Of a stretch of 64,000 bases of DNA, positions 7,370 to 62,142 are shown in pieces. Within the stretch, counting starts at the first letter, position 1. The number at the start of each line of letters is the position of its first letter. The position numbers and the translations under genes were made by a program. The stretch is taken from positions 1 to 64,000 of IMG/VR virus record IMGVR_UViG_3300028772_000011. The stretch is one strand, 5' to 3'. The notes beneath the pieces were generated by a model. That model was given only the letters and a program-made list of their open reading frames with translations. It was not told the DNA's origin and did no database searches. Source of the DNA: a virus.

Positions 7370-7414
7370 GATTCAAAATTAAAAATAGTATATTTTTCAA
7401 CAATTTAATTCCAA

Positions 7415-7447
7415 ACTTGTTTTTCTTATATTTTATTGGTACATTTG
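7415..7447 (+). promoter_or_regulatory. Bacteroidota sigma-A-type (early) promoter for DNA polymerase
   Basis: ACTTG (-33), 20 nt spacer, TACATTTG (-7, TAnnTTTG). Confidence 0.75.
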
Positions 7448-7477
7448 CAAAAATCAAACGTAAACTTAAAGTAAAAA

Positions 7478-10895: not shown

Positions 10896-13559
10896 TTATA
10901 CTTTTATGAGACGTAATGATCTACAAGCATTAACATATAGAGCCGCATTAACTGAACTTAAATTACCATTAGCATAATTACATTTAAATACATACTTATC
11001 TACAGTGTAGAAACCACAATCACCAGTTAATCCAGAAAAAGTTCCTACAACAGCATCCGTACCTCCACTACCCAATGCACTAAATCCACTACTATTATCA
11101 GCCCCTATATTAGGTGTATTCCAATAGCTTAACCCTTCTTTTTTTAATTTTCCACCACTGATATCATCTCCTCCTAGAGTTGTACTTAATGCAGTAAAAT
11201 CAGTTTGTGTGGGTACTTTCCAACCCCAAGGAGTTGTTGGGTTAGTATCATTATAATAGTCTATGTCCATTTGTAATAATTTAACAGCAAACCAATTGTA
11301 TAATTTACCATATACAGCTCCAATGGAAGCATCATTATTATAATAACACCACATAGCTGCTGCTTTTACTGCTTCGTAAGTTTTTTGTGTTATTGTTCCA
11401 GTTGTCTGGCCATAAATAGCATCATAAAGTTCTTTAGCCCCTGACCTCCCAATTTGCTGTACGGAAACTGAATCAAAAGAAATACCATGTCTGTCAGTAA
11501 TAGTATCTCGATTAGCATAAAAACTCAAGCCTAAATTAGCTGTAGGGGCTTTATACATCATAGTATATAATGTCCAATCTGTAGAAGATATAGTAAATAA
11601 TGTCAAACTTATACTGGAATCAGTTACAGCACCTCCAGTCCCTTTCGTGTTCTTAGCATAAAAAGATATTTTATACCATAATCCTATTGATGTAGCTGGA
11701 TATTGATAGATTACCCCAGTATTACCTGCTATGTTTGTTATAGTTTGTGACGAAGTACCTTCATATGGATCTATTATATTTGAACTTGTATTCCCTCTCG
11801 TAGAAAACCATCCAGGAGCTACACCATTTACATAAGCCCCTTCCATAGTTCCATTAACAATTTTCTCTGTATTACTATTAATAGTTACATTATTAATCAA
11901 ATTACCTTGTGGTGTACATGTCATCTCACAATTAGAAGATTGCCATTGTTGAGTACCTATTGTAACATTTGGTATATCAGGGTATAGATTCTTAATAAAA
12001 TTTGACTCTGTTAAAACTTGTACTGGTGTTAATGCTTGTGAACGTATAATATGAGCTGCTATAGAACCTTTAAATGGAGTTTGATTAGTAACAGCGGTCA
12101 TTAAACAACTTAAATTAATAGAAGTTATAATACTAATGGTTTCAAATAACACTCCATTTATAAAAATATCTAATGTATTATCTCCCTTAGCAATTATAGT
12201 AATTATTGCATTTTTACCTATTAAAAAGTCTACCTTTTTTGTTGTTGCTTTTACTGTAAATAGTGAATTTCTTATTTTTAAACTTGATGCATTATCAATT
12301 CCAAACAAACTTCCACCACTACTATTGTCACTAACATAAAAATTGGAAGTAACTCCTCTAAATGTCATAGCATTAACCAAGGTAGTTATACTCCAAGCAT
12401 CTGTATCAGTAAAATTAATAGTTGGATGTAACAGATAATTTAATCCTTCATTAGTATTCTTAATATAAGGATTTTCATTTGGAGCAATAGTTCCAAGATA
12501 ATAAGGATATGAAGAATTCCCAACACTCGACAAATCTAAAGGATCACCTGATAATACTTCTTTAATTGATACATTATCAAGACTTAACGAAGCAGCACCA
12601 GCAGTCATTATCCATAATGTTGTAGATGTAGCAACAAAAGTTTCTGAAAACATACCATTATTTTTCCTCGGTGTTGATACTCCAGTAGTTGGATTTAATA
12701 GAATGACCCCTGATGCATAATTAGAAATTTCAAACACTATCTTATATTGTTTTCCAACAGTTAATACATTAGGTTGATTTAAGTTTACTGCTGAGGATAC
12801 TAAATAATTTGCAGTTCCTCCACTAATAGTAATCCCAATTCCTTTAGACCAAATGGTATCAGTGTCAAATCCACCGTTAGCAACTTTTTCAATAGTATCT
12901 AAAACCTCTGTTCCTTGTGGAGTAATAGAGTAAAGTTTTTTGACATTATTAGTTCCAATTGCAAGATTACCCCCAACACCAAGCCAACCTAATTTAATAG
13001 AATTATACATGTTATTAAGTTTGCACAATTTAATGTAAGCAGTTATACTATTACCAAGAACTTCTACTACAGAACAATTATCTATTGATCCTATAAAAGT
13101 ACCACTATTACAAGATATAAAAACATGACCTACAGTAGTAGAGGTTAAAAAACATGTAAATGTGCCATCAGAAGAATAAGAATCTGAACGTACAGTTCCA
13201 CCTTCTAATAATACAGAACAAGTTCCACTAGTATAATTCGATATTGTTAATGTAACTTTATATTTTTTACCTACTCGAATAATTACCGAAGTTGGGTAAA
13301 TATATGTAATAGCTGTTAAACCTCCATTACAGTTTGCAGTTCCTCCTGATATATTCCAATTACTACCTTTTGTCCAGCCAGTATCAGTATCAAATCCACC
13401 ATTGGTTACTAACTCAGGTCCGAAATTAGTGTTATCCCCTAACACTCCACCATCCGCTACAACCCTATCTTTATAGGCATTAAATAGAGATAATGCAGAA
13501 TTATAAAAATTCAACATTACTTTACCTGCCATTGCTATTTGTTCTCTAAATAAACTCAT
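10896..13559 (-). CDS. Receptor-binding/adhesin-like virion protein: CBM-like repeats, LamG-like domain, C-terminal Fib_succ_major domain
   Basis: Two NGGFDTDTxWxKG..ISGGTAN repeats; IFINGV...FKGSI LamG-like region; IGTQQW, CYYNND, YGKLYNW, GWKVPT, GGKLK, SGFSAL, SLRLIK motifs. Confidence 0.75.
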   Translation of the reverse strand: MSLFREQIAMAGKVMLNFYNSALSLFNAYKDRVVADGGVLGDNTNFGPELVTNGGFDTDTGWTKGSNWNISGGTANCNGGLTAITYIYPTSVIIRVGKKYKVTLTISNYTSGTCSVLLEGGTVRSDSYSSDGTFTCFLTSTTVGHVFISCNSGTFIGSIDNCSVVEVLGNSITAYIKLCKLNNMYNSIKLGWLGVGGNLAIGTNNVKKLYSITPQGTEVLDTIEKVANGGFDTDTIWSKGIGITISGGTANYLVSSAVNLNQPNVLTVGKQYKIVFEISNYASGVILLNPTTGVSTPRKNNGMFSETFVATSTTLWIMTAGAASLSLDNVSIKEVLSGDPLDLSSVGNSSYPYYLGTIAPNENPYIKNTNEGLNYLLHPTINFTDTDAWSITTLVNAMTFRGVTSNFYVSDNSSGGSLFGIDNASSLKIRNSLFTVKATTKKVDFLIGKNAIITIIAKGDNTLDIFINGVLFETISIITSINLSCLMTAVTNQTPFKGSIAAHIIRSQALTPVQVLTESNFIKNLYPDIPNVTIGTQQWQSSNCEMTCTPQGNLINNVTINSNTEKIVNGTMEGAYVNGVAPGWFSTRGNTSSNIIDPYEGTSSQTITNIAGNTGVIYQYPATSIGLWYKISFYAKNTKGTGGAVTDSSISLTLFTISSTDWTLYTMMYKAPTANLGLSFYANRDTITDRHGISFDSVSVQQIGRSGAKELYDAIYGQTTGTITQKTYEAVKAAAMWCYYNNDASIGAVYGKLYNWFAVKLLQMDIDYYNDTNPTTPWGWKVPTQTDFTALSTTLGGDDISGGKLKKEGLSYWNTPNIGADNSSGFSALGSGGTDAVVGTFSGLTGDCGFYTVDKYVFKCNYANGNLSSVNAALYVNACRSLRLIKV

Positions 13560-13562
13560 AAA

Positions 13563-16040
13563 TTACATCCCCCACCATAAATAAATTTGTCCTGCACTAC
13601 GTATCTCACATTGTAAATAATTCGTACTTAATGGTATGTAGTCACTTTGCAATGCTCCATAAATCCAATTGCTAGTGTACCCACTAAATATAGAAGTTGC
13701 TAACGTTCCTCCTGTCATAATAACCTTAAAAGGTTTTTTGATAATTGGATTCATTATAGTAAGAGCTTGATTAGTTCCCATAGTAACAGAGAACTCCTCT
13801 CCTGTAGTCATATCTATATTGAAGCCTGGTAGAGCTACTGTTGTTATAGGTTGATTATATAATCCAACTATATTTCCATTGGCATCTACTTTAAACAAAG
13901 TTACCCATGTACCACTTCCTTTGGTGGCATTAGCTACAGTACACTTTTCAAACAATACAGTACTCATTTGATTAGAGTGTCGTATGTCTCCTACTGCATC
14001 ACCTACAGCTGTAGTTATTGATTGATATACATAACGGAGAGCTAAGTCGCGATAATTTCCTAATGTATTATTATTTATCTCTATAATTCCAGTTGTATTT
14101 TTTTGGAATGACTGAGTAGAATCGGTCATAGACAACTTCGAATATATCATAACATTATTAGAAGTATTTACATAAAAGGAGTTAATACCTGATGTAGGAG
14201 AAAAAAACATAGCGTTACCAGAACCATCAAATGAAAACCACTTGTTATATATCCCGAACCCAAATCCATTATAATTAATACTAAAAGGACTACCAACAGT
14301 GATTGAAGTTGCACTAATATAAGTAGCAATAATACGTTCCTCTGAATTGATTATAATTTTTGCTCCTATCATTGCAGCACTGAATGCCGTACCAATGCCA
14401 GTTATAGTAGTACCATTTGTTGAAATAGTTCCAGAAATAGTCCAAGGAGTAGTATGATAGATTATACCACCATTTTGAGAAACAAACTTAGTTATTTGAT
14501 CATTTGATACAGGTAATGTATTTGGATAAATTGTTTTGAATTTTAAACTAGCAGCATCCCAAACAGATACTCCTTTGTCGATAGGAACCTCTTCACGAGT
14601 AGCTAAAGGTTGAGTACTTCCAACGTCTCCAACTCTTGCTATACCATTATTATCAAATACTAATAATCCATCATTAACTCCATCATATAACTTAGCCCTT
14701 ATACCAACTAACTGTCCTGGAGAAAGTCCTGCAACTGCTAAATCACGAAGTATTATCTCATTTTTAGTTGTTAATACTTGTTCTGCATGAGTTTCGTAAG
14801 AAGCACCTAATTGAGATATGTTCTCTACATGTAAGGTTCCAGCAGCATCCAATAAAACAGAGTGAGTACCATTAACAAGACTTGTTGGGTCTATTGAAAT
14901 TAAGGTTGAATCTATTACTTTATTATCTCCATCAATACATAGATAGTGGTTTGTAAGGTCATCTGTTTGGAATACTCCGTCAGTCAGTCTACAATAATAA
15001 TAAGTGCTACCAAAATAAGCTAAAGCCCCAAAATCACCCACACAATAAGAATACTTACTATTAACTCCATTACAAGAATCTACTCCACCAATACAATTAA
15101 TATAAATACTATCAGGACCGTTAAAAACTTGACCAATACCTCTACAATTTATATGTATGTTATTTACCCCATTAAAGGCATTCTCAAGAGCTTCACAATT
15201 TATATAAGTACAATTACTACCCCTAAAACCAGATTGTCCTGCCTTACAATTAATAAATTTAGCACCTAAAGGAGAGATGGTAGTGAAAGTATTATTTAGT
15301 TTATTTCCACAATTTTCGAATGAACCAGTTAATGACCCACCGCCAGCAAACATCTCTCTGTCTAAACTATTTATATTCTTAAAAGTACCTGAATAAATTG
15401 AACTAGAATTAAATAGAGTACCGCCTATACTATTTATATTTTCAAAGATTCCAGAGAACTCCAAAGCACTATGAAAACTTTCAACACTAGTAACTTCAAT
15501 ATTTCTAAATACTCCAGACAATATAGCATCACTAGTGCCATATATTCTACCTTTACAATTCTCAACCAACAAGCCTGGATAATTACCAGATACAAGTAAT
15601 CCGTTGTGAACGAAATCAAGACCCCTTAATTTTATATTATCTGCCATTACTATACACCCACTGTGACCTATTTTAACATCAGCTTGTCCAGTATCTGATA
15701 CTAAATATATATAAGAAGTATCTAAAACTAATTGTGTGTCCATACCACAGAATCTAGCTTTTATTAAAATATAAATAGGACTATCAGAAGTAGGAGACAT
15801 GGTTTTTGCTATATTATATACTGATTCTAATTCCAGACCATTATCAGAATTACTTTGTCCTCCAAATACTGTTAGATATCTATCCTGATTAAATAAAGCT
15901 GCTGCAACTCCTACATTTTCCTTACCACTTAAATCTACAGCAGGAATAGCTGCTATTAACTGAGCAGCAACTCCTACATCTTCTTTTGAAGTATCATGAA
16001 CCTCAGTCCAAATTCCATTTATTTTTATTTTGTGTTTCAT
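13563..16040 (-). CDS. Tail fibre/spike-like protein with beta-helix repeats
   Basis: Repeating SGxFxNI and YINCxG units suggest a parallel beta-helix; shares KEDVGVAA linkers with the upstream fibre gene. Confidence 0.6.
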   Translation of the reverse strand: MKHKIKINGIWTEVHDTSKEDVGVAAQLIAAIPAVDLSGKENVGVAAALFNQDRYLTVFGGQSNSDNGLELESVYNIAKTMSPTSDSPIYILIKARFCGMDTQLVLDTSYIYLVSDTGQADVKIGHSGCIVMADNIKLRGLDFVHNGLLVSGNYPGLLVENCKGRIYGTSDAILSGVFRNIEVTSVESFHSALEFSGIFENINSIGGTLFNSSSIYSGTFKNINSLDREMFAGGGSLTGSFENCGNKLNNTFTTISPLGAKFINCKAGQSGFRGSNCTYINCEALENAFNGVNNIHINCRGIGQVFNGPDSIYINCIGGVDSCNGVNSKYSYCVGDFGALAYFGSTYYYCRLTDGVFQTDDLTNHYLCIDGDNKVIDSTLISIDPTSLVNGTHSVLLDAAGTLHVENISQLGASYETHAEQVLTTKNEIILRDLAVAGLSPGQLVGIRAKLYDGVNDGLLVFDNNGIARVGDVGSTQPLATREEVPIDKGVSVWDAASLKFKTIYPNTLPVSNDQITKFVSQNGGIIYHTTPWTISGTISTNGTTITGIGTAFSAAMIGAKIIINSEERIIATYISATSITVGSPFSINYNGFGFGIYNKWFSFDGSGNAMFFSPTSGINSFYVNTSNNVMIYSKLSMTDSTQSFQKNTTGIIEINNNTLGNYRDLALRYVYQSITTAVGDAVGDIRHSNQMSTVLFEKCTVANATKGSGTWVTLFKVDANGNIVGLYNQPITTVALPGFNIDMTTGEEFSVTMGTNQALTIMNPIIKKPFKVIMTGGTLATSIFSGYTSNWIYGALQSDYIPLSTNYLQCEIRSAGQIYLWWGM

Positions 16041-19000
16041 TATTCTGGTAGATTTTGTGGTAAAATGTTGTTGATATCAAATCCTAAAGCAACTAAACGG
16101 TCAATTTCAGGTTGAGGTAGATTATTGTATTGGAAACTAAATCCAGTATTATATATATTTTTTATTGAACTGATATTTATAGATTCAAGATTATTATTCT
16201 GTAAATAAATATAATTCAAATTATTCAGTGAATCTAAACCTATTATATCAATAGGATATACTGATTGATTAATGCTTAATGTTCTTAAATTTGGAGTTGA
16301 AGCCATGTTTATAGATTGTAATTCAGTATTTCCTATTTCCAAATAAAATAAATTATTCAATCCTAATAAATTTATTTCAGTTAATTTATTTCCTCCACAT
16401 GAAACATATTGTAATTCTTGTGATGAACTTAAATCTAAATATTCCAGTTTATTAAAACCACATAATAAGGCTTGTAAATTATTTAATCCTGTTAAATTTA
16501 AAACAGATACTAATAATCCATATTCCTGAGATACATTTAAAATATACACTTTATTTGAGTCTAAAACAGAAGGTAGAATAACCCCATACCCATTCGCCAT
16601 GTCTTGTAGACTAGGATTATCTCCAAATAAAGCACCTAATTGAATATCATTATCCCACCATTCAGTGTGAGGGTTTTTAGAATCATCAAATAACACTGCT
16701 AACTGTTCACTTTGTGGATTGGCATCACGAATAGCCCTTAATATGTCAACATCAGATAGCACAACTACAGGTTCACTAGTATCATACCACACTTTTATAT
16801 TTGGATTAACAGGTTCTTCCGTTCCTATATAAACTTCTTCAAATATTCCACTTGTGTATAATTCATCAATTTCCTGTTGAAGTGTATTAGTCTTATTATC
16901 ATACTCAGTATGTACCCCTTCCACAACAGCTGTAAACTCCTCTCTTGTTGTATACCCGCTTAAATCTACTATCGGTAAATCATCAATTATACTAGCCTGT
17001 ATTCTCTTATTTTCCTTTGGTTGAACATGTATATAATACGGTGTATTTATTTGTCTAGTTGATTTTAATAAATCCCCATTAAGAGCTACATAAGTTTGTA
17101 AAGTTAGAGCATCATCTTTAGATGGAATCTTCCAACCATTGGTTGTATCAACGATACCTTTTCCATTGGAAATAGTATATGCGTTATATAATCTGCCATA
17201 TGTTGATACAATTAATTCATCGGTTGTTAACTCATCGATATATGGTATTATAGAAGTACTCCCAGTATTATCTAATACCCATTGTTCATTGGTTAAATTA
17301 TTATTTATAAGAGACCCATCTTGATAATGAGTTACTTTTAAATTTGAAGTGATCCAAATTTGAGTTCCTATTTTACAAGTATCATATATATTATTATCAT
17401 AATCTTTATAAATTGCTGTAGTCTTACCATCAGGTAATGATAATTCTAAAGTAGTACAATCCCTAACAACTCTTAATGATTGTCCATTATTAGGATGTTT
17501 ATTATCAGTTACATATAAAGATGAATATCCAGCATACAAATTTATAGCTGTATATCCAATAAAACCAGGTGTTTGGGTTGAAGTCCAAATAGAACTAATT
17601 CCACCAACACCAGCGTTTAATGCGGTACCTGTAAATATGCCAGTAATTCCATTTCTAGTACCTCCTGGAATTAAATTAAATCCATATTTATCAATTCCAT
17701 ATATATCTATATTTTGAGAATCAATCCATCTTGGGTGTAATATAGTTGATAAAGGTAATTTTTCCCATTTACTTTGGTCAACTTCAGAAAATAAAGCTGC
17801 TGCCACTCCTACATCCTCCTTACTATCGTGAGCATGAGAAGTTATATTTCCAGTAAGTAAGTTTTCAATTTGTTGTTTGGTAAGAATGTAGTTAGAAAGT
17901 CCGTTTAATTTATTAAGTAAGTTATTAGTTAATACATTCGTGTCGGAATTACTCTCATAACTAAGTTTTATTTGGGCAGAACTCATTACTGCGTTTAACA
18001 TATCTGGGTCAGATGTTTTTACAAAAGAGGCATTAATCCCAACAGAAGTAGCTTGATATACTGCCCACTTTCCATCTCCATCATCTAATATGAAGACAGA
18101 AAATGGTAGTTTTGGTATGTTGTATTCGTTTCTCTCTGGAATCCCAGCTAATACAACTTGCTCTACAGCACCCTGTACTAAATTATATAATTTTTGTAGT
18201 GTATCTCCTGCTGAGGTTACTCCATCTCTAAGGTTTGAAATTAAAATAGCTGCTACACCTGCATCCTCTTTACCACTTAAATCAACTACTGGCAGCCCAT
18301 CGATTATACTAGCATGAATCTTAACTGGAAGTCCATTCCTCTGTTTTGGTTGAATATAATTGTGATCTTCAATTTGTATGATATTATAAACATTCAATTC
18401 ATCATTATTATAAGCACAAACTGCTCCATCAGTACCACTGAAATCTGAACCGATTAATGAGCCATCACGATATTTAGTTTCACATAAGTTTTCAGCTAAC
18501 CACCATTGAGTTCCTATTTTTACGCATTTATATATTTGACCATCATTACCAATATATTCAGCCGTATGTCCTGTAATATTTATTGGATTATCAATTATTG
18601 CTCTAATTGAACACCCTGCTTTTTTATTATCACTCGATGCTCCATTTGATAATGAATTTGTTTGAAAATAATAATCATAAACTCTCAGTGCATTGTTATC
18701 ATTAAAACTATCAGCCAACCACATATAAAAAGTAGAATAATCCCCTAATATAAAGTGAAATGTACCATCAGTCTCTCTATATCCACTAGCTCTTTCATTG
18801 AAACCATATTCATTAGTTGCTGTTGCATTTGGTGCATCCCAATACAAAGTACCTGTTTCTTTTAATTTTTGCCCACCATTACCATTTCCACCTAAAAATG
18901 CATATAAAATATTAAATTCATTTTTAGTTGAAATATGTGCACTAGATGTTGTAATACCTCTTGGATCTGTTGTAGCATACCAATTATAAAGCCTACCATA

Positions 19001-19273
19001 TTTGATAGATTGTACATCGGTAGTTGCATTTTCCCATTTACTCTGTTCAAAATTAACAAGGTCAGAATCATCCACACCATCTTTAAACCAATATTTAGTA
19101 TTTCCATTTATTTCATCCAATATTCGTACTTCCATTGTTGGAAACCTGACAGCTATAGGTATAGTATTTATTGCTTCAGCAATAGATGAATAAGGTCCTT
19201 CCCAAGTATTTACTGGGACAGGATTAACTGGTTGTATACCAAACGGTAATTGTAATCCTTCAGTTATCCCCAT
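16040..19273 (-). CDS. Multi-domain fibre/adhesin with two circularly permuted Fib_succ_major domains and C-terminal leucine-rich repeats
   Basis: YGRLYNWY/KIGTQWWLAENL and YGFNLIPGG/KIGTQIW/YGRLYN motif sets; LxxLxCxxNxLxxLDL repeats near the C-terminus. Confidence 0.75.
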   Translation of the reverse strand: MGITEGLQLPFGIQPVNPVPVNTWEGPYSSIAEAINTIPIAVRFPTMEVRILDEINGNTKYWFKDGVDDSDLVNFEQSKWENATTDVQSIKYGRLYNWYATTDPRGITTSSAHISTKNEFNILYAFLGGNGNGGQKLKETGTLYWDAPNATATNEYGFNERASGYRETDGTFHFILGDYSTFYMWLADSFNDNNALRVYDYYFQTNSLSNGASSDNKKAGCSIRAIIDNPINITGHTAEYIGNDGQIYKCVKIGTQWWLAENLCETKYRDGSLIGSDFSGTDGAVCAYNNDELNVYNIIQIEDHNYIQPKQRNGLPVKIHASIIDGLPVVDLSGKEDAGVAAILISNLRDGVTSAGDTLQKLYNLVQGAVEQVVLAGIPERNEYNIPKLPFSVFILDDGDGKWAVYQATSVGINASFVKTSDPDMLNAVMSSAQIKLSYESNSDTNVLTNNLLNKLNGLSNYILTKQQIENLLTGNITSHAHDSKEDVGVAAALFSEVDQSKWEKLPLSTILHPRWIDSQNIDIYGIDKYGFNLIPGGTRNGITGIFTGTALNAGVGGISSIWTSTQTPGFIGYTAINLYAGYSSLYVTDNKHPNNGQSLRVVRDCTTLELSLPDGKTTAIYKDYDNNIYDTCKIGTQIWITSNLKVTHYQDGSLINNNLTNEQWVLDNTGSTSIIPYIDELTTDELIVSTYGRLYNAYTISNGKGIVDTTNGWKIPSKDDALTLQTYVALNGDLLKSTRQINTPYYIHVQPKENKRIQASIIDDLPIVDLSGYTTREEFTAVVEGVHTEYDNKTNTLQQEIDELYTSGIFEEVYIGTEEPVNPNIKVWYDTSEPVVVLSDVDILRAIRDANPQSEQLAVLFDDSKNPHTEWWDNDIQLGALFGDNPSLQDMANGYGVILPSVLDSNKVYILNVSQEYGLLVSVLNLTGLNNLQALLCGFNKLEYLDLSSSQELQYVSCGGNKLTEINLLGLNNLFYLEIGNTELQSINMASTPNLRTLSINQSVYPIDIIGLDSLNNLNYIYLQNNNLESINISSIKNIYNTGFSFQYNNLPQPEIDRLVALGFDINNILPQNLPE

Positions 19274-21528
19274 TATATATTATTTATTTCTTTATTATTT
19301 AATGTTATTACGTGGTTGTGATTTTTATAATATGGGATTGCGTTTTTCATAATATAAACATTATAAGCAGTTTCAAATCCGCCAGCATCTTCAATATTCA
19401 TATCTATTACGTGATATGAATTTGTTAATTCGATATTCATTGCATTAATATCAAAAACACTAATAATATTTCTACTTTCTGGAATTGCCAATACAAATAC
19501 ACTATTATTACTCCCAGTTTGTAAATTAATTACTTTGGCATCTTCATTAAATATTCTACCACTTAAGCCTCTAATTTCGTTTGTGGTACTTGGTACATTT
19601 TCAGTACTTCCATAAAAAATCATATTATCAAATTTTATTTCTTTTATTTGCGTTGTTCCGTTTAAATTTCTATGTGTATCAAAAATCTCAATCATATATT
19701 TTATTGATTGTAAATTTTGTAATTTAAGACTTTCATTAGTATGGTTGAATTCACTAATAGCCCCACCTAATGGGTTAATTTGGAATAAATTATTTATTTG
19801 AATCCTTGGTGAATTGTCTACATAATAGTACAATTTATAACCAGTTAATGGTTTTACTAATTCATTAATATATTTATTTAATTTAATATATGCATTAATT
19901 AATGTGTCCGTATTACCTTTTTCTCGTCGATAAATAGTTTCTGGATATGTAATTGAATTAGAATTAAGAGTCATATCTATAGTTGGTTCAATATATTTAT
20001 CTGATGTAGTGACATTGAATTCATAATTATAGTTATTTTTTATTTTACTATAATCATGTTTACCATTGAAAATCCTAAATTTTGATATTTCACCAATAAA
20101 TGATCCACTAAAATATTTTTCTATTGGTAATAAATATTGAGTTGAATAATTATTATCGAATCCAATCAAATTTGAAAGACCCTGTGTACCTCCGCCAATT
20201 GACAAATTAAAAGGTACCAATTCTTGTTTTTGGTCTCTTTCGTCTAAACTTCTAAATAAAAGTTCTGGTAAATTTTTAGATATAAATATTAATTTTCCAT
20301 TAATATAAAATTGTAAAATATAAGTTCTATTTGCATCACCACATACTGAATAATTATTCATTATCATTCTTATTGATATAGAACTCCACTCATTATCATT
20401 AATCATTTTCGGATTTGAATATTCTTCCACAACATCAAATTCTTCATCACAAGAATATATAATAGTTCTATACCCTATACTTCCATCATCTTTTACTCTA
20501 AATCCTATTTGATTATTTACAATATCATTAATAATTTTTGCTTTTAATTTTTTCTCTGGTAACTCCTCGATATTATTTACAGTATTACCAGCTAATGTTC
20601 TATTCAGTAATAAATATAGATTTGGATTATGTTTTTCGATATCAGATATAGAATATTGCTTTGATTCATTAAATGTTTTTGTATTCAATCCATTTTTACC
20701 TCTATTGAGCAATAAGAATTTATTGTCTGTTAATATCTCATAGATACCCTGTTGATTGATATTAAAATTATCATCTGTTGTTATTGTTATCCCAGTTTCT
20801 AATATTATTTCATTATTTATTGATTTTATTTCAAAATTTTCTTCTAAATCTTTATTGTATCCATACCAAAATTTATTTTCAGCTCTTAGTCCCATATAGA
20901 AAAAAAATCCTTTATTATCTGGATATTTATAATTTAACGTATTCATTAAAGGAAATGTTATAAAATCTGGCTTTATTGTAAAGTTAAATGTTATTTCATC
21001 GTTAATAATATTTGGTAATATTTGGTATTCTTCTTTTGACTTATAAACTCCCTGATAAAATCCACCATTGAAACGTATAGAGTTACCATCTTCGGTTTCG
21101 ACTAACGTTGTTGGGTAAATATATTCCCCAGTGTTTCCACTAATAGCATTTAACGTTAATCTCATATCACCAACATCAATAACATGAGAAGAGTCAGTAA
21201 TTAACTGTAATAGTTCATTAGATGTAATAGTTTTTTTATCGAATAAAATTAACCCATTATCTATTCCAGTAAATCCAATATTTTTTAATTCCAAACCTTT
21301 ATTAATCGAGCTGCTCCATTTATAGTTACCCGACCCATATATTTTATTTACGCCTATACAAGAATTATCATTAATATCAATAAATGAAATTAGATTAGAA
21401 TCATAATACGTTGTATCATCTAAAAGAGTAGAAGGGTCAACATCTTTTGATAATGTTAAGTCCCAGTACTCTGAAAGTGATAATTTTAAGTCTATTTTAT
21501 TGTTATTGTTTTCAAAAATATTTGACAT
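19273..21528 (-). CDS. Virion structural protein with LamG/ConA-like domain
   Basis: NEWSSISIR...FYINGKL...IGGG...FIGEISKFRIFN LamG-like signature; first gene of the fibre operon with a late motif upstream. Confidence 0.6.
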   Translation of the reverse strand: MSNIFENNNNKIDLKLSLSEYWDLTLSKDVDPSTLLDDTTYYDSNLISFIDINDNSCIGVNKIYGSGNYKWSSSINKGLELKNIGFTGIDNGLILFDKKTITSNELLQLITDSSHVIDVGDMRLTLNAISGNTGEYIYPTTLVETEDGNSIRFNGGFYQGVYKSKEEYQILPNIINDEITFNFTIKPDFITFPLMNTLNYKYPDNKGFFFYMGLRAENKFWYGYNKDLEENFEIKSINNEIILETGITITTDDNFNINQQGIYEILTDNKFLLLNRGKNGLNTKTFNESKQYSISDIEKHNPNLYLLLNRTLAGNTVNNIEELPEKKLKAKIINDIVNNQIGFRVKDDGSIGYRTIIYSCDEEFDVVEEYSNPKMINDNEWSSISIRMIMNNYSVCGDANRTYILQFYINGKLIFISKNLPELLFRSLDERDQKQELVPFNLSIGGGTQGLSNLIGFDNNYSTQYLLPIEKYFSGSFIGEISKFRIFNGKHDYSKIKNNYNYEFNVTTSDKYIEPTIDMTLNSNSITYPETIYRREKGNTDTLINAYIKLNKYINELVKPLTGYKLYYYVDNSPRIQINNLFQINPLGGAISEFNHTNESLKLQNLQSIKYMIEIFDTHRNLNGTTQIKEIKFDNMIFYGSTENVPSTTNEIRGLSGRIFNEDAKVINLQTGSNNSVFVLAIPESRNIISVFDINAMNIELTNSYHVIDMNIEDAGGFETAYNVYIMKNAIPYYKNHNHVITLNNKEINNI

Positions 21529-46837: not shown

Positions 46838-47640
46838 TTAAGAATTTGTTTTAATAATAACTCTGGTATATTTTCATTAGTTGTACATATAGTATTCTTT
46901 TCATTATATATATTTTCAAACATTGGGGTTATCATCATATATTTTGTAAACTCAATTTTGTTTGTTACATATATTAAATCAACCTTATTATCTTTACATA
47001 GTTTATTCTTTTTAATATCTCTACCAACATTTTTTATAAATCCAGTTTTTCCACCAAAATGTTCCATATGTGATTCAAAATGTTGTTCTCCTTGGCACTC
47101 TATAGCTATTTTATAATCGGGTAAATAAAAATCTAAGGATTGTCGTCCAAGCCATCTAAATTTTTTCTGTTCAATATATTCAATTTTATTATCCGTTAAA
47201 ATTTTACCTATAAATACCTCTATTTTACTTTTTATTTTGCTACATTCTGGGCATCCGTGCTTCTCATTTGTATGCTTATTAGGCATTTGCCAGAATTCTC
47301 CGTGTATTGGACATATTATACATACAGGTAATTTGCTATGGGTATATTCAACTTTAGAATAATCATATTTATCTCCATGAACTAATATTGCATTTTCAAT
47401 AAATTTATCTCTGGTTAATCTAATTGTGTTACCTCTTCTTTCGTTATAACACATTTGACAATCATTTATTTCGTTTTTACAAACTAACCAATTTGGTTTT
47501 GACTCCCAAGTATAATTGTGTATTGTACATTTAGCTGTTATGTATTTTTTATTTCCATTATATTGAGAAAGTACTACCAAATGCGGCTTTATTATTTTAA
47601 GTTGTTCAACAAATTGTTCATGTGTAATTTTTGGCGGCAT
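46834..47640 (-). CDS. Free-standing endonuclease: 2 Zn-binding repeats plus PD-(D/E)xK (DUF559/Vsr-like) domain
   Basis: HGDKYDYSKVEY..CPIHGEFWQ..CPEC; LDFYLP..AIECQGEQH. Confidence 0.8.
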   Translation of the reverse strand: MPPKITHEQFVEQLKIIKPHLVVLSQYNGNKKYITAKCTIHNYTWESKPNWLVCKNEINDCQMCYNERRGNTIRLTRDKFIENAILVHGDKYDYSKVEYTHSKLPVCIICPIHGEFWQMPNKHTNEKHGCPECSKIKSKIEVFIGKILTDNKIEYIEQKKFRWLGRQSLDFYLPDYKIAIECQGEQHFESHMEHFGGKTGFIKNVGRDIKKNKLCKDNKVDLIYVTNKIEFTKYMMITPMFENIYNEKNTICTTNENIPELLLKQILK

Positions 47641-48422: not shown

Positions 48423-48471
48423 GATTTAATTTGATAAATAACTGTATTTTTTAAAAATAATTTACTTAAGT

Positions 48472-48504
48472 ACTTGTTTTTTTAATATATTTTTAGTATA
48501 TTTG
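48472..48504 (+). promoter_or_regulatory. Bacteroidota sigma-A-type promoter
   Basis: ACTTG, 20 nt spacer, TATATTTG. Confidence 0.7.
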
Positions 48505-48519
48505 TATAAAATATTAGGG

Positions 48520-54099: not shown

Positions 54100-54128
54100 C
54101 TTCAAATAGACAAAAAAGTTAGTATTCA

Positions 54129-54161
54129 ACTTGTTTATTTCATATTTTAAACGTACATTTG
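54129..54161 (+). promoter_or_regulatory. Bacteroidota sigma-A-type promoter for primase
   Basis: ACTTG, 20 nt spacer, TACATTTG. Confidence 0.75.
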
Positions 54162-54188
54162 TGGAAACTAAATAAAAATTAAAAGAAA

Positions 54189-56343: not shown

Positions 56344-57186
56344 TCAAAAATTTACAAATTCTTCAACATTTTCATTTAAATCTTCCAAAGAATTGATACG
56401 GAACTTATAATACCCATAATCTGAGGATATATCGTGTTCTTCATATGTAATGTCTGTTGTATCAAATAAATCCCAAATAAGAAACCCGTGCCCACTGTTA
56501 ACCGTTTCACCAAAATTTTGTTGAATTAGCGAACCAGGTTGAACGATTTTAATTCCATTATAATCTTGTTCTTGACGTAAATGTACATCTCCACATAATA
56601 CAGCATCTGAACCATCAAACATTTCAAGACTTTTGCCGTGTTCAAACATAAATCCACTTTCATTTTTAAGTCCAATTGTCATACCATGAAATAAGGATAG
56701 AAATATTTTATCTGAGTATTCTATTTTTTTTAATTTTATATCAATTGGTGTATGATTATCAAATACAGAAAATAAAGACCACATAATATTTTCATCTTCA
56801 TAAAATCCACCTTTATAACCCAATTCCATATCTAAATATATAATATTAGGTAACTCAAGCATTTGAACAATAGGAGTTAGGCTATCTACGCGATCTTTAT
56901 TATTTTCTAAAAAATCATGATTACCACTAATGATAATTGTTTTACATATTTTATCACACTCCCTAAGAAACCAACTAAGTAGTTGATTCTGTTCATTTGA
57001 CACGGTAATCTTAGAATGGACTAAATCTCCAACGATACAAATTCGAGTAGATTCTTTTCCGTTTTCATCAACAATTTCTTTTGCTTGTTTTAAAAATTCT
57101 GTTATTACTTCCTTATATTCTTGGTGACGTTGAAAATTTCTAATATGTATATCAGCCAAATGAATTACCTTAGTTATTTTTTGCAT
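56344..57186 (-). CDS. SbcD/Mre11-like nuclease (T4 gp47-like)
   Basis: HLADIH, GDLVH, GNHD, FHG, GDVH, PGSLIQQNFGE. Confidence 0.85.
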   Translation of the reverse strand: MQKITKVIHLADIHIRNFQRHQEYKEVITEFLKQAKEIVDENGKESTRICIVGDLVHSKITVSNEQNQLLSWFLRECDKICKTIIISGNHDFLENNKDRVDSLTPIVQMLELPNIIYLDMELGYKGGFYEDENIMWSLFSVFDNHTPIDIKLKKIEYSDKIFLSLFHGMTIGLKNESGFMFEHGKSLEMFDGSDAVLCGDVHLRQEQDYNGIKIVQPGSLIQQNFGETVNSGHGFLIWDLFDTTDITYEEHDISSDYGYYKFRINSLEDLNENVEEFVNF

Positions 57187-58888
57187 TTTCTTTTAATTTT
57201 ATTATATCGTTAATTTTATTAATTAATTCTTGTTCATCAATATATACTTTATCTATATAGTCAATTATATATTTTGGGTTTTCATATGTAAAATATAATA
57301 AATTGACATTATTCTTCTTACATAAATTATTTTTTCTAATATCTCTTTCTCTTACTTCTGAAAATCCTTTAGCTCCACCCCAACAATTATTTTCATCAAA
57401 ATGTTGCCTTCCATGATATTCAATAGCTATATCATATTCTGTTAAATACATATCAATACTTTGAGCCCTTAACCATTTATCTCTAAATTGGTATACTAAA
57501 TTATAGTTTTGAAAATTATCTCTAATAATAGATAATAATTTTTGTTCAGATATATCATTTTTTGAAGCACACTCTGGACAATTAGATCCTCTCAAATGAC
57601 TACTTGGTATTTGCCAGAATTCTCCGTGGATTTGGCATATAATACATATTTTAGTTGATGAGTTAACGTAATTTACTTTTGAATAATCATATTTTTCCCA
57701 ACGCGCATTTTTTAGCTTTTTAACGTATTCAGTAGTTTCCATTTTATTACACTCTGAACACCCACAGCCTTTAAGGTGAACTTCTGGTGTTTGTGTAAAA
57801 TCTCCGTGTTTTAAGCAAGTTATTATAACAGTGGTGTGTCTGTCAACATATTCTACTTTTGAATAGTCATATTTATTTCCATGAATCAATTTTGCTTTTG
57901 TTATAAATTTTTCATTTGTAAATCTTAAAGCATTTCCAACTATTTCACCTGCACATTTAGGGCAACCTCCACCTCGCAAATGGCTATTTGGTAGTTGCCA
58001 AAATTCACCATGAACTGGGCAAATAATATATACTTTTAAATTCCAATTAATATATTCTGTTTTTGAGTATATATATTTTTCACCATGAATTAATCTTGAT
58101 TGTTCTATAAACTCATCACTTGTCTTACTATTTTTACATTTTATACACCCCAAGCCATCTAAATGTTTCTTAGGCTTCTGTTTAAAATCACCATGTATAG
58201 GACAATTGATTATTACTGGCGTTTTGTTGTCAACATATATTACTTTAGAATAATCATATTTATTTCCATATATTATTTTGGATTTTAAAATGAATGATTC
58301 TGTTGTTAAAACCCCATTTGCGCATTTAGGGCAGCCATGTCCAAATGAATGATTTGCAGGTAATTGCCAAAATTCCCCATGTTCAGGACATATTATACAA
58401 ATTTCAGTAGTTGAATTAATATATGTAACTTTTGAATAGTCATATTTATTATTATGTATTTTAATTGATTTTTCTATAAATTCATTAAAATTTAAAGCTA
58501 AAGAATTTGTTTTAGTACAATTAGGACATCCGAAACCCTTTAAATGGTCTTCTGGTTTTTGCAAAAACTCACCGTGTTCTGAACATATTATAATTACAGG
58601 GGTATTTTTATCTACATATTTAACCTTTGAATAATCATATTTATTTTTATGTATCTCATTAGCTTTATCCGAAAACATTTCAGTAGTTGGTACATTGTGG
58701 CCGCATTTAGTACAATTATTACCGTTTAAATGATTGTTTGGTAATTGGTAAAATTCACCGTGTATTTTACATATAATACAAACATGTTTTTTACTATTAA
58801 CATAAACTACTTTTGAATAATCATATCTATCTCCATGAATCAGTATAGCTTTTTCGATAAATTCCTCTCTTGTTAATTTTTTAGGCAT
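57170..58888 (-). CDS. Free-standing endonuclease: 7 Zn-binding YDYS repeats plus PD-(D/E)xK domain
   Basis: Seven ~60-70 aa F..K...H..KYDYS..Y..I.C..HG.F.Q.P..H..G..CxxC repeats; IDMYL..IAIEYHGRQH. Confidence 0.85.
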   Translation of the reverse strand: MPKKLTREEFIEKAILIHGDRYDYSKVVYVNSKKHVCIICKIHGEFYQLPNNHLNGNNCTKCGHNVPTTEMFSDKANEIHKNKYDYSKVKYVDKNTPVIIICSEHGEFLQKPEDHLKGFGCPNCTKTNSLALNFNEFIEKSIKIHNNKYDYSKVTYINSTTEICIICPEHGEFWQLPANHSFGHGCPKCANGVLTTESFILKSKIIYGNKYDYSKVIYVDNKTPVIINCPIHGDFKQKPKKHLDGLGCIKCKNSKTSDEFIEQSRLIHGEKYIYSKTEYINWNLKVYIICPVHGEFWQLPNSHLRGGGCPKCAGEIVGNALRFTNEKFITKAKLIHGNKYDYSKVEYVDRHTTVIITCLKHGDFTQTPEVHLKGCGCSECNKMETTEYVKKLKNARWEKYDYSKVNYVNSSTKICIICQIHGEFWQIPSSHLRGSNCPECASKNDISEQKLLSIIRDNFQNYNLVYQFRDKWLRAQSIDMYLTEYDIAIEYHGRQHFDENNCWGGAKGFSEVRERDIRKNNLCKKNNVNLLYFTYENPKYIIDYIDKVYIDEQELINKINDIIKLKENAKNN

Positions 58889-59030
58889 TTTTAATATATT
58901 CCTTTAATAATTTATTTATCAAGGAAGAAGTATTAATACATTGACCCTTTAAATAATCAACCACTTCTGGTGATACAGAAATAGATATTTTTACTTTTCT
59001 TTCTTCGTCTCCGATCTTTGTTCTTCCCAT
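58881..59030 (-). CDS. 49-aa ribbon-helix-helix (CopG/antitoxin-like) protein, not in the ORF track
   Basis: MGRTKIGDEERKVKISISVSPEVVDYLKGQCINTSSLINKLLKEYIKNA*; its stop overlaps the endonuclease start (ATGCCTAA). Confidence 0.75.
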   Translation of the reverse strand: MGRTKIGDEERKVKISISVSPEVVDYLKGQCINTSSLINKLLKEYIKNA

Positions 59031-60792: not shown

Positions 60793-61917
60793 TTAATTTT
60801 GAGAAATATTTAATTCTTTATTTAATATTTCTTCTATATTATAAAATTCCGTATATGGGATTCTAATTAATTTAATACCATTATCAAGACAATATTGTGT
60901 TTTAATTTCATCTCTTTTTTTATTAAGTATAAAAGATATTTCTCCTCCCCAATGATTAACTGGTTGAAAATGCTGTTTACCATCGAATTCTATACATATA
61001 TTAAGCGATGGTATGTAAAAATCAAAAGGTAATGGTTTTATATTCTTGCATTCATTAAATCTATGTTGGTTGATATTAATAATATTTTTCTTATTTAATA
61101 TTTTCATAATTAAGCTTTCGCCTTTACTTTCTATACAAATAGGACACCCTTTACCTTGTAAATGATTGGTAGGGCTACACGAAAATTGACCATGTTTTTT
61201 ACAAATAATATTAACCTTTTTATGTGCAGTTTCATATTTCACTAACGAATAATCAAATTTATCACCATGAATAAGTTTTGCGCTTAAAATAAACTCATTA
61301 GTTGTTGGTTTAATTTTATTACTACATTTAGCACATCCATCGCCTCGTAAATGATGCTCAACAGTTTGCTTGATAATATTACCACAATCCTTACAATAAA
61401 AAATAATATAATCGGTTAATTTAATAAAAACAACATCTGAATAATCAAATTTATTTTTATGTTTAATATTTGCCTTTTTTATAAATTCTTCTTTTGATAG
61501 ATAATAATTTCCTAAACATTTTTTACAACCATTACCTTTAGATATTAATAATGATCCAGCTTGAACATAAAAATTATTTCCACATTTTTTACATATTACG
61601 TTAACTTTTCCTTTATCGTTAATATAATTAATATTTGATAGGTCATAACTATCTCCGTGCTTTTTATATAACTCTAATAAATATTGCTCTTGCGTTTTTG
61701 TTCTTTTTAACGTACCCTTTTTTATACTGCATTTTGGGCATCCACTGCCTAATAAATGTGATCCAGCTTCTTGTTCAAAAAATTCTTTATGAATATTACA
61801 AAATATTTTTAATTTAGAGTGTCTTCCACTATATATTGTTTCAGAATAATTATATCTATCTCCGTGAATTAATCTTGCTTTAATTATAAATTCTTCTGTT
61901 GTAAGTTTTTTACTCAT
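60793..61917 (-). CDS. Free-standing endonuclease: 4 Zn-binding repeats plus PD-(D/E)xK domain
   Basis: HGDRYNYS/HGDKFDYS repeats with CxxC; SKGE..LPFDFYIP..IEFDGKQH..RDEIK..LIRIPY. Confidence 0.85.
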   Translation of the reverse strand: MSKKLTTEEFIIKARLIHGDRYNYSETIYSGRHSKLKIFCNIHKEFFEQEAGSHLLGSGCPKCSIKKGTLKRTKTQEQYLLELYKKHGDSYDLSNINYINDKGKVNVICKKCGNNFYVQAGSLLISKGNGCKKCLGNYYLSKEEFIKKANIKHKNKFDYSDVVFIKLTDYIIFYCKDCGNIIKQTVEHHLRGDGCAKCSNKIKPTTNEFILSAKLIHGDKFDYSLVKYETAHKKVNIICKKHGQFSCSPTNHLQGKGCPICIESKGESLIMKILNKKNIININQHRFNECKNIKPLPFDFYIPSLNICIEFDGKQHFQPVNHWGGEISFILNKKRDEIKTQYCLDNGIKLIRIPYTEFYNIEEILNKELNISQN

Positions 61918-62142
61918 TATTTTGTTTTAAAATTATTTTGTCAGCGGAAAGGTTGACATATAATATATAAATAACACTAACGTTATCTCATGTATTTATG
62001 AAAAATAAAAGTTTTTTACTAAGGAAAGAATTATTAACCATTCTTTCAAAACTGGTCTGGGCAATACTTACCCATTTAATATCTAAAATCGATATTAATT
62101 ATATTTTATTAACATTTTTTTGGAGTTAATTTGTGGGTGGAA

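What the first reader, a model, noticed from the sequence alone, without database searches (positions are those of the whole stretch)
17055..19000. Two different circular permutations of the Fib_succ_major domain in one protein
The canonical motif order is A (DG.Y..VKIGTQ.W.AENL..CYYNND), B (YG.LYNW..GW..P..G.KLK), C (GF...GG.R..W...G.SVR), as in 10896..13559. Seen here: domain 1 (~19000-18390) runs B-C-A (YGRLYNWY..GQKLK..YGFNERASGYR..GCSIRAI..DGQIYKCVKIGTQWWLAENL..CAYNND). Domain 2 (~17695-17055) runs C-A-B (YGFNLIPGGTR..GQSLRVV..DNNIYDTCKIGTQIW..YGRLYN..GWKIPS..GDLLKS). All three permutants therefore occur within 8 kb. Inference: permutation lets a normally terminal lectin-like domain be displayed mid-fibre with its variable segment re-oriented.
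Basis: partly seen in the sequence, partly recalled or inferred. Interest (0 to 1): 0.72.

Follow-up and report, generated by a model that had tools for sequence, protein, structure and literature searches.

The report
Two circularly permuted lectin-like fibre domains
One phage tail-fibre protein carries two copies of a known lectin-like binding domain whose three sequence segments are rotated in two different ways, and both rotated forms belong to larger subfamilies found mostly in viruses, which no paper in the searched library describes.

Summary
ORF 16040-19273 (minus strand, 1077 aa) lies in a phage structural gene block. It holds two Fib_succ_major (FISUMP, PF09603/TIGR02145) domains with rotated segment order: B-C-A at residues 89-295 and C-A-B at residues 527-738. 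The neighbouring fibre gene (10896-13559) has the canonical A-B-C order.

Profile hits are split and swapped. Re-ordering each domain in silico restores one full-length canonical match.

Neither form is unique to this window:
- About 100 stand-alone B-C-A proteins exist.
- About 25 C-A-B units exist, some of them stand-alone.
- Each form makes its own clade on an order-free tree.
- Three other proteins also combine both forms.

With the same query, the top 80 IMG/VR viral loci gave 70 B-C-A blocks and no A-B-C block. The top 80 cellular loci gave 103 A-B-C and 3 B-C-A.

AlphaFold2 folds domain 1 as one closed unit (pLDDT 87.5, pTM 0.82) with a C-type-lectin-like core. Domain 2 is less certain (pLDDT 67.5, pTM 0.67).

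The most likely origin is duplication and truncation of tandem arrays.

An earlier unchecked note of this scan saw a rotated FISUMP domain in another genome. I rate this a new variant of a known kind, of moderate interest.

The parts
16040..19273 (-). Tail-fibre-like protein P0001 (1077 aa). It is the second of four back-to-back large minus-strand genes (19273-21528, 16040-19273, 13563-16040, 10896-13559).
   Evidence: ORF list and translation. PHROG tail fiber hit phrog_32345 at residues 391-456. Terminase, portal and major head protein genes are in the same window.
18389..19009 (-). Domain 1, a permuted FISUMP domain in order B-C-A (residues 89-295): B at 18857-19009, C at 18596-18856, A at 18389-18571.
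   Evidence: Pfam profile 34-185 followed by 1-46. Segment HMM E-values 6e-22, 1e-22 and 1e-27. Re-permutation gives one full hit. AF2 pLDDT 87.5, pTM 0.82, with segment A at about pLDDT 97.
17060..17695 (-). Domain 2, a permuted FISUMP domain in order C-A-B (residues 527-738): C at 17462-17695, A at 17258-17419, B at 17060-17203.
   Evidence: TIGR02145 profile 100-176 followed by PF09603 profile 2-137. Segment HMM E-values 2e-7, 3e-13 and 6e-9. Re-permutation gives one full hit of 134 bits. AF2 pLDDT 67.5, pTM 0.67.
19031..19048 (-). Upstream junction motif EQSKWE before domain 1 (residues 76-81).
   Evidence: Read directly from the sequence. SKWE precedes 8/24 C-A-B, 5/123 B-C-A and 0/471 A-B-C units.
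18248..18358 (-). Downstream linker after domain 1 (residues 306-342): Y-I-Q-P-K ... ASIIDGLPVVDLSGKEDAGVAA.
   Evidence: Sequence. DNA repeat families D4 and D15 link it to the other junctions.
17906..18103 (-). Core of the middle module between the two lectin-like domains (residues 391-456).
   Evidence: phrog_32345 'tail fiber protein', E 3.8e-13. Homologous middle modules occur in P0008, P0011, P0015 and P0019.
17762..17824 (-). Upstream linker before domain 2 (residues 484-504): SKEDVGVAA ... DQSKWE.
   Evidence: Sequence. Repeat family D4.
16955..17038 (-). Downstream linker after domain 2 (residues 746-773): YYIHVQPKENKRIQASIIDDLPIVDLSG.
   Evidence: Sequence. The same PK..RI.ASIID.LP cassette follows C-A-B units in P0005, P0006, P0012, P0228, P0242 and P0269, and a B-C-A unit in P0018. 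It follows none of 471 canonical units.
16079..16582 (-). C-terminal leucine-rich-repeat module (about residues 898-1065).
   Evidence: phmmer hit to Internalin-J 3bz5, E 6e-15, five stretches. Pfam LRR_4 E 1e-5 on the isolated piece.
10902..11972 (-). Canonical-order FISUMP domain at the C-terminus of the neighbouring fibre protein P0002: A at residues 530-569, an insertion of about 170 aa, then B-C at residues 750-886.
   Evidence: Pfam 723-853 = profile 24-153. Segment HMMs. Canonical HMM gives two collinear hits, 16-56 then 42-173.

Best explanation
P0001 is a modular phage tail-fibre or receptor-binding protein. Between conserved shaft and linker cassettes it carries two self-contained lectin-like binding modules, then a C-terminal leucine-rich-repeat module.

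Both lectin-like modules are true circular permutants of the FISUMP (Fib_succ_major) domain, which has a C-type-lectin-like fold.
- Domain 1 is cut between segments A and B, giving the order B-C-A.
- Domain 2 is cut in the loop between B and C, giving the order C-A-B.
- In both, the old C- and N-termini are joined by a short C-to-A linker.

Each module was recruited from an older permuted lineage found mainly in viruses. Neither was rearranged in place.

Those lineages most likely arose by the duplication-truncation route. A tandem array A-B-C-A-B-C loses its outer parts, leaving B-C-A or C-A-B.

Each module probably binds a host surface glycan or similar ligand through the hypervariable stretch inside segment C. 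The cut site decides which face of the module is tied to the fibre.

Shown here: the permutations, their spread, their clade structure, their bias towards viruses, and the closed fold of domain 1. Inferred: the duplication origin, ligand binding, and any effect of orientation.
For: 1. Split and swapped profile hits, and restoration of a single full-length hit on re-ordering.
2. Natural proteins made only of the permuted unit. There are 98 stand-alone B-C-A proteins that start 15-30 aa before YG.LYNWY and end at C.YNND..NV. Stand-alone C-A-B proteins P0167, P0272, P0270 and P0280 end just after GD.LKS.RQVNSP. As a Pfam control, canonical P0153 gives one 1-187 hit while the permutants give partial or split hits.
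3. AF2 model of domain 1: pLDDT 87.5, pTM 0.82, with segment A at pLDDT about 97. BFVD holds collinear viral models with TMq 0.75 and 0.72.
4. Fold. Nearly all of the top 50 PDB representatives are C-type-lectin-like: Bd2740 C-terminal domain 8oks Z 5.2, Lcl C-terminal domain 8q4e Z 5.1, InvE, intimin, mannose-receptor CRD-4, TvpA, Mtd. All align to B+C only. For domain 2 the weak hits TaqVP, TvpA and PvdO align to A+B against the N-terminal halves of those chains. This is consistent with the A-B-C order of the parent fold.
5. Order-free tree: 58/71 B-C-A units form one clade (support 0.97) with domain 1, and 23/24 C-A-B units form one clade (0.91) with domain 2. The two domains share 31.6% identity. 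Domain 1 is 48-49% identical to other B-C-A units and domain 2 is 40-79% identical to other C-A-B units.
6. The C-to-A joints inside permutants (7-16 aa, SIR..KD...DG..Y...IG.Q.W) look like the joints between units of tandem A-B-C arrays. Partial-tandem blocks (BCAB, ABCA, CABCA, BCABC) also exist.
7. Viral bias. With the same query, the top 80 IMG/VR loci gave 64 B-C-A plus 6 tandem B-C-A blocks and 0 A-B-C. The top 80 GTDB genome loci gave 103 A-B-C and 3 B-C-A. A PF09603 scan of 41 genomes of one phylum gave only canonical-order matches in all 40 genomes other than the seed genome G001. G001 was picked because it has B-C-A.
8. Hypervariable middle of segment C in both subfamily alignments (consensus lines). 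Fib_succ_major/DUF1566 motifs overlap the diversified regions of CLec2-class DGR targets (PMC5758913).
Against: - The domain 2 model is only moderate (pLDDT 67.5, pTM 0.67, 21-sequence alignment), and its PDB matches are weak (Z 3.3 or less).
- No coordinates or permutation-aware superposition were available, so the spatial equivalence of segment A in permuted and canonical forms is inferred, not shown.
- PDB Z-scores for domain 1 are about 5, below the level the tool calls safe. The fold call rests on how consistent the hit list is.
- Samples for the tree and the tallies were drawn with domain 1 or domain 2 as queries, so clade purity and counts are biased by ascertainment.
- IMG/VR contigs and MAGs can be misclassified.
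- No ligand, host or trimer state is known.
Confidence: 0.85

Rival explanations
1. The segments are leftovers of truncated tandem repeats and are incomplete on their own. A full domain forms only by complementation between chains of the trimeric fibre (a 3D domain swap), not within one chain.
For: Fibres are usually trimers. Tandem B-C-A-B-C-A arrays and partial blocks exist. The domain 2 monomer model is only of moderate confidence.
Against: Each unit holds exactly one full set of profile positions. Many stand-alone single-unit proteins exist. The domain 1 monomer model is closed, with pTM 0.82.
Confidence: 0.07
2. The permutation is adaptive. Moving the chain ends to a new surface point lets phages mount the lectin-like module in line within a fibre. 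The variable face then points in a different direction for each cut site.
For: Permutants are strongly enriched in viral contigs. All 10 viral C-A-B units are internal, against 15/17 viral canonical units that are C-terminal. Fibre-type linker cassettes flank permutants but none of 471 canonical units. Four proteins pair both cut types.
Against: About 40% of viral B-C-A units are terminal or stand-alone. Canonical units are commonly internal in large cellular proteins. Every cut of a loop gives adjacent termini, as in the parent. No structure, orientation or binding data exist.
Confidence: 0.3
3. The permutation is a neutral by-product of recombination within tandem arrays. It became fixed in a few viral lineages and spread by module shuffling, with no functional difference from the canonical order.
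For: There are few origin events (9 changes over 205 tips). The joints resemble tandem-array joints. Conserved linker cassettes suggest exchange of whole modules.
Against: The near-exclusive use of permutants in the closest viral relatives, and of canonical order in cells, is hard to reconcile with pure neutrality. It could still reflect shared descent alone.
Confidence: 0.4
4. The pattern is an artefact of where Pfam set its model boundaries, or of an assembly chimera.
For: In tandem arrays any reading frame of the repeat is possible.
Against: Single-copy proteins of all three orders exist, with the protein ends at the unit ends. The arrangement recurs on many independent contigs. The ORF is intact, with no stops.
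Confidence: 0.02

Closest known systems
Fib_succ_major / FISUMP domain (Pfam PF09603, NCBIfam TIGR02145)
   Same: Same sequence family. The whole protein scores 126.9 bits (cut-off 33.9) and 106.9 bits (cut-off 41.65). All conserved motifs are present once per unit.
   Different: The segment order is rotated: B-C-A and C-A-B instead of A-B-C. The curated models therefore give only split or partial hits. The permuted forms are found mainly in viral contigs, while the canonical form dominates in cellular genomes.
C-type-lectin-like fold domains: Lcl C-terminal domain/DUF1566 (8q4e), Bdellovibrio Bd2740 fibre C-terminal domain (8oks), intimin/invasin/InvE tips, and DGR variable proteins TvpA (2y3c), Mtd (1yu0) and TaqVP (5vf4)
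   Same: The B+C core of domain 1 aligns to these (Z 4.1-5.2, 81-112 residues). Several are tips of adhesins or fibres. Fib_succ_major motifs are grouped with DUF1566 as CLec2 DGR targets.
   Different: Only part of each permuted domain aligns sequentially. Sequence identity is 7-18%. No reverse transcriptase or template/variable repeat pair was found in this record, so there is no sign of DGR diversification here.
Circular permutation by duplication and truncation (the general model for natural permuted proteins; my own knowledge)
   Same: Tandem arrays, joints that look like tandem-array joints, and partial-tandem blocks are all present in the family.
   Different: Two different cut sites of the same domain sit in one polypeptide, and this pairing recurs in three other proteins (P0006, P0012, P0190). 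The origin itself is inferred, not traced.

Membership tests
Fib_succ_major (PF09603 / TIGR02145) | Profile score above the curated cut-off | tested here: met
   126.9 bits against 33.9; 106.9 bits against 41.65.
Fib_succ_major (PF09603 / TIGR02145) | One collinear match across the whole profile (canonical A-B-C order) | tested here: not met
   Domain 1 matches profile 34-185 then 1-46. Domain 2 matches profile 100-176 then 2-137. Control protein P0153 gives a single 1-187 match.
Fib_succ_major (PF09603 / TIGR02145) | One full set of profile positions in each unit | tested here: met
   Re-ordered domains give single hits at 6-200/201 and 3-201/201.
Natural circular permutant | Homologous proteins exist whose chain ends coincide with the new termini | tested here: met
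   98 stand-alone B-C-A proteins. Stand-alone C-A-B proteins P0167, P0272, P0270 and P0280.
Natural circular permutant | The permuted chain folds as one closed domain | tested here: met
   Domain 1: pLDDT 87.5, pTM 0.82; collinear BFVD models with TMq 0.72-0.75. Domain 2 is inconclusive: pLDDT 67.5, pTM 0.67.
Natural circular permutant | Permutation-aware 3D superposition on the canonical domain | not testable with these tools
   Model coordinates are not returned and the aligners are sequential. The only indirect support is that B+C and A+B map to successive parts of TvpA.
C-type-lectin-like fold | Structural match of the domain core to solved CTLDs | tested here: inconclusive
   The top 50 VIA-align rows are almost all CTLD-type, but Z is only 3.2-5.2 and covers model residues 28-176. 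Best Foldseek PDB hit is 8q4e, E 0.43.
DGR variable protein | A nearby reverse transcriptase and a template/variable repeat pair | tested here: not met
   No PF00078 match in the 93-kb record and no suitable repeat in the window. The record is a fragment (CheckV estimate 27% complete), so absence from the whole phage is not shown.
Phage tail fibre / receptor-binding protein | Structural-gene context and fibre-type modules | tested here: met
   PHROG tail fiber hit. Four consecutive large genes on one strand. Terminase, portal and major head protein genes in the window. Presence in the virion is not tested.

The most novel reading that the evidence does not exclude
Permuted FISUMP domains are phage-specific lineages, and the relocation of the chain termini is itself the adaptation. 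It would convert a bacterial surface lectin-like domain into an in-line or tip module of a trimeric fibre. The two cut sites would give two different display geometries, and phages would combine them in one fibre to present differently oriented binding faces. If so, circular permutation would be a general and so far overlooked route in the evolution of receptor-binding proteins.
Probability: 0.2. Interest if true: 0.7.

Novelty: new variant of a known kind. Interest (0 to 1): 0.55.

Why it matters
- **Protein evolution.** The FISUMP domain is a very large, poorly studied family: 16,606 cluster representatives matched domain 2 alone at E up to 0.001. Finding two distinct natural circular permutants adds a clear case of permutation by duplication in a C-type-lectin-like fold. 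Each forms its own clade and each is found mainly in viruses. The intermediates are still visible.
- **Annotation.** Current Pfam and NCBIfam models report these domains only as partial or split hits. Domain boundaries in phage receptor-binding proteins are therefore mis-drawn. Separate permuted profiles would fix this.
- **Phage biology.** The split between permuted units in phages and canonical units in cells, together with the shared linker cassettes, gives a testable handle on how fibre modules are mounted and exchanged.

Tried and rejected
- A sequence search of the whole protein against PDB found only LRR proteins and no solved FISUMP relative.
- Foldseek against PDB gave no significant match for domain 1; the best was Lcl C-terminal domain at E 0.43.
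- The GenBank phage collection gave one hit only: Rhodobacteraceae phage LS06-2018-MD05 WBC28475.1, a 209-aa protein that aligns collinearly to residues 88-291.
- I considered a DGR reading of the 'variable segment' and dropped it. There is no reverse transcriptase in the record and no template/variable repeat.
- I considered a reading across the two domains in canonical order (A1 ... C2) and rejected it, because no B segment lies between them.
- The insertion in the neighbouring canonical domain looked by eye like the N-terminal beta-sandwich modules of the same protein. phmmer gave no significant similarity.
- Literature: 11 papers mention the family at all, and none mentions a permutation. 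Searches for circular permutation with C-type lectin fold or tail fibre gave nothing relevant.
- Short-length relatives of domain 2 were few, so its alignment for folding stayed shallow.
Full report
**Setting.** The window is part of an IMG/VR virus record of 93,274 bases. CheckV estimates it to be 27% complete. The window encodes a terminase large subunit, portal, DNA polymerase and major head protein.

The finding lies in ORF 16040..19273 on the minus strand. This ORF encodes P0001, 1077 aa. It is the second of four abutting large minus-strand genes: 19273-21528, 16040-19273, 13563-16040 and 10896-13559. P0001 has a PHROG 'tail fiber protein' hit at residues 391-456. Its C-terminal module is a leucine-rich repeat related to Internalin-J (E 6e-15).

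**Checking the observation.** Pfam and NCBIfam both call Fib_succ_major well above their cut-offs, in three stretches. Scanning the protein in pieces gave these matches:
- residues 76-225 = PF09603 profile 34-185/187
- residues 251-294 = profile 1-46
- residues 516-605 = TIGR02145 profile 100-176/176 (weak, E 0.034)
- residues 634-792 = PF09603 profile 2-137/187

The six-frame scan of the record gave the same pattern.

I built HMMs for the three segments from an alignment of relatives:
- Segment A runs roughly from DG..Y..V.IG.Q.W to C.YNND.
- Segment B runs from YG.LYNW to G.KLK.
- Segment C runs from W...N..GF to G.S.R.

These HMMs place B 89-139, C 140-226 and A 235-295 for domain 1. They place C 527-604, A 619-672 and B 691-729 for domain 2. 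All six are significant.

I also built a 201-position HMM from 150 canonical units.
- Native domain 1 gives two hits, positions 65-200 then 6-67. Re-ordered domain 1 gives one hit, 6-200, at 129 bits.
- Native domain 2 gives two hits, positions 122-201 then 3-108. Re-ordered domain 2 gives one hit, 3-201, at 134 bits.

So each unit holds exactly one full set of the profile. The cut is near profile position 66 in domain 1 and between positions 108 and 122 in domain 2.

The neighbouring protein P0002 has the canonical order. Its segment A is interrupted by an insertion of about 170 aa.

**Is it special to this window?** No.
- A search limited to short proteins, with domain 1 as query, returned 121 hits. 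Of these, 98 are single B-C-A units. They start 15-30 residues before YG.LYNWY and end at C.YNND..NV.
- An exhaustive HMMER search with domain 2 found 16,606 family members at E up to 0.001. Among the best 150 there are about two dozen isolated C-A-B units. Four are stand-alone proteins of 262-315 aa that end just after GD.LKS.RQVNSP.
- Over the 303 proteins gathered, isolated blocks number 392 A-B-C, 105 B-C-A and 24 C-A-B.
- Four proteins carry both permutants: this one, P0006, P0012 (in the reverse order) and P0190.
- As a control, Pfam gives canonical P0153 one 1-187 match. It gives the stand-alone permutants only partial or split matches.
- The GenBank phage protein WBC28475.1 (Rhodobacteraceae phage LS06-2018-MD05, 209 aa) aligns collinearly to residues 88-291 of P0001.

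**Structure.** With a 70-sequence alignment of B-C-A proteins, AlphaFold2 folds residues 60-305 with mean pLDDT 87.5 and pTM 0.82. Segment A has pLDDT about 97. This fits one closed domain.
- Two BFVD viral models match it collinearly, with TMq 0.75 and 0.72.
- Against 48,161 PDB representatives, nearly all top rows are C-type-lectin-like domains. They include Bd2740 C-terminal domain (Z 5.2), Lcl C-terminal domain (Z 5.1), InvE, intimin, mannose-receptor CRD-4, TvpA and Mtd.
- All of these align to model residues about 28-176, which is B+C only. That is what a sequential aligner should do with a permutant.
- The Z-scores are modest. The fold call rests on how consistent the list is.

Domain 2 had only a 21-sequence alignment and folds less confidently, with pLDDT 67.5 and pTM 0.67.
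- Its weak PDB matches include TaqVP, TvpA and PvdO. They align to its A+B part against the N-terminal halves of those chains.
- Domain 1's B+C aligned to TvpA residues 124-329.
- Together these mappings agree with an A-B-C order in the parent fold. This is indirect evidence only.
- Domain 2 matches the B-C-A-type BFVD models only partly (TMq 0.38-0.43). That is expected if only the C-A stretch is collinear.

**Origin.** I made a tree from concatenated segment columns, so that segment order plays no part.
- 58 of 71 B-C-A units fall in one clade (support 0.97), which includes domain 1.
- 23 of 24 C-A-B units fall in one clade (support 0.91), which includes domain 2.
- There are nine changes of arrangement over 205 tips.

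Domain 1 and domain 2 share 31.6% identity. Each is closer to members of its own class elsewhere: 48-49% for domain 1 and 40-79% for domain 2. The two modules were therefore recruited from older permuted lineages.

Inside the permutants the C-to-A joint is 7-16 residues long. It reads like the joints between units of tandem canonical arrays. Partial-tandem blocks (BCAB, ABCA, CABCA, BCABC) also occur. This fits duplication followed by truncation, but the origin is inferred. The sampling was biased by my queries, which tempers the tree result.

**Distribution.** I used the same B-C-A profile as query against two collections.

| Collection | Top-80 loci |
|---|---|
| IMG/VR viral contigs | 64 B-C-A and 6 tandem B-C-A blocks, 0 A-B-C |
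| One genome per prokaryote species | 103 A-B-C and 3 B-C-A |

A viral scan with the C-A-B profile gave 42 B-C-A, 17 A-B-C and 10 C-A-B blocks.

An order-neutral PF09603 scan covered 41 genomes of one phylum. It gave only canonical-order matches in the 40 genomes other than the seed. The seed genome was picked because a 3659-aa ORF in it has two B-C-A units. Permutants are thus mainly viral, and the canonical form is mainly cellular.

**Position and linkers.**
- Canonical units end the ORF in 15/17 viral and 87/103 cellular cases.
- Viral B-C-A units end the ORF in 44/106 cases.
- All 10 viral C-A-B units are internal.
- Most canonical units in very large proteins are internal too.
- Both domains of P0001 are preceded by SKWE and followed by a PK...ASIID.LP.VDLSG cassette. 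This downstream cassette follows 7/24 C-A-B units and at least one other B-C-A unit (P0018). It follows none of 471 canonical units.
- The DNA repeat families D4 and D15 mark these junctions, and they extend into the next gene. An earlier first-reader note had also flagged these linker repeats.

**Function.** The middle of segment C has no consensus in either subfamily alignment. In DGR surveys, Fib_succ_major/DUF1566 motifs overlap the diversified regions of CLec2-type targets (PMC5758913). I infer that this stretch is the ligand-binding surface, and that the modules bind host surface glycans or similar ligands. No reverse transcriptase or template repeat is present in the record. The idea that the cut site re-orients the binding face is plausible but untested.

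**Novelty.** Only 11 papers in the library mention the family, and none describes a permutation. Another first-reader note of this scan recorded a rotated FISUMP domain at a tailspike C-terminus in another genome. That note is unchecked.

I classify this as a new variant of a known kind. It is a well-supported and, as far as I could find, undescribed pair of circularly permuted subfamilies, mostly viral, of a known domain. This protein is one of a few that combine both.

Noticed in passing
window 11376-11888 (-), P0002 residues ~558-728: The canonical FISUMP domain of the neighbouring fibre protein has an insertion of about 170 aa nested inside segment A, between ...NNVT and ...AAMWCYYNND. By eye it resembles the N-terminal GGFD..W beta-sandwich-like modules of the same protein, but phmmer found no significant similarity.
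   Followed up: partly
window 15891-16001, 16956-17002, 17789-17836, 18239-18319: Short conserved linker cassettes (VDLSGKE.VGVAA and ASIID.LP.VDLSG) recur at module junctions of P0001 and at the N-terminus of the next gene, P0003 (repeat families D4 and D15). They may be sites of module exchange.
   Followed up: partly
window 57595-58892, also 47267-47434 and 61234-61921: Seven to nine diverged copies of a unit of about 150-200 nt, spaced 183-204 nt apart, lie inside ORF 57170-58888 (-). Single copies lie in other minus-strand genes (families D1-D3). This looks like a family of small repeated protein modules.
   Followed up: no
window 7399-7453, 48456-48510, 54113-54167: A conserved intergenic motif of about 55 nt (family D6, 71-75% identity) sits before divergently placed genes. 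It may be a shared promoter or regulatory site.
   Followed up: no
whole record (G000, 93,274 bases): CheckV estimates the record at only 27% complete, which would imply a very large phage genome. Relatives P0005 (76% identical to domain 2) and P0037 are listed on a contig of 711,471 bases.
   Followed up: no
G001:C13:412039-413862 (locus L089): A rare cellular case: a 3659-aa ORF in a Bacteroidetes MAG (GWF2_33_16) carries two B-C-A units, alongside about eight canonical FISUMP genes in the same genome.
   Followed up: partly
window 16079-16582 (-): The same fibre protein ends in an Internalin-J-like leucine-rich-repeat module. One chain therefore carries three putative binding modules of two unrelated folds.
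   Followed up: partly
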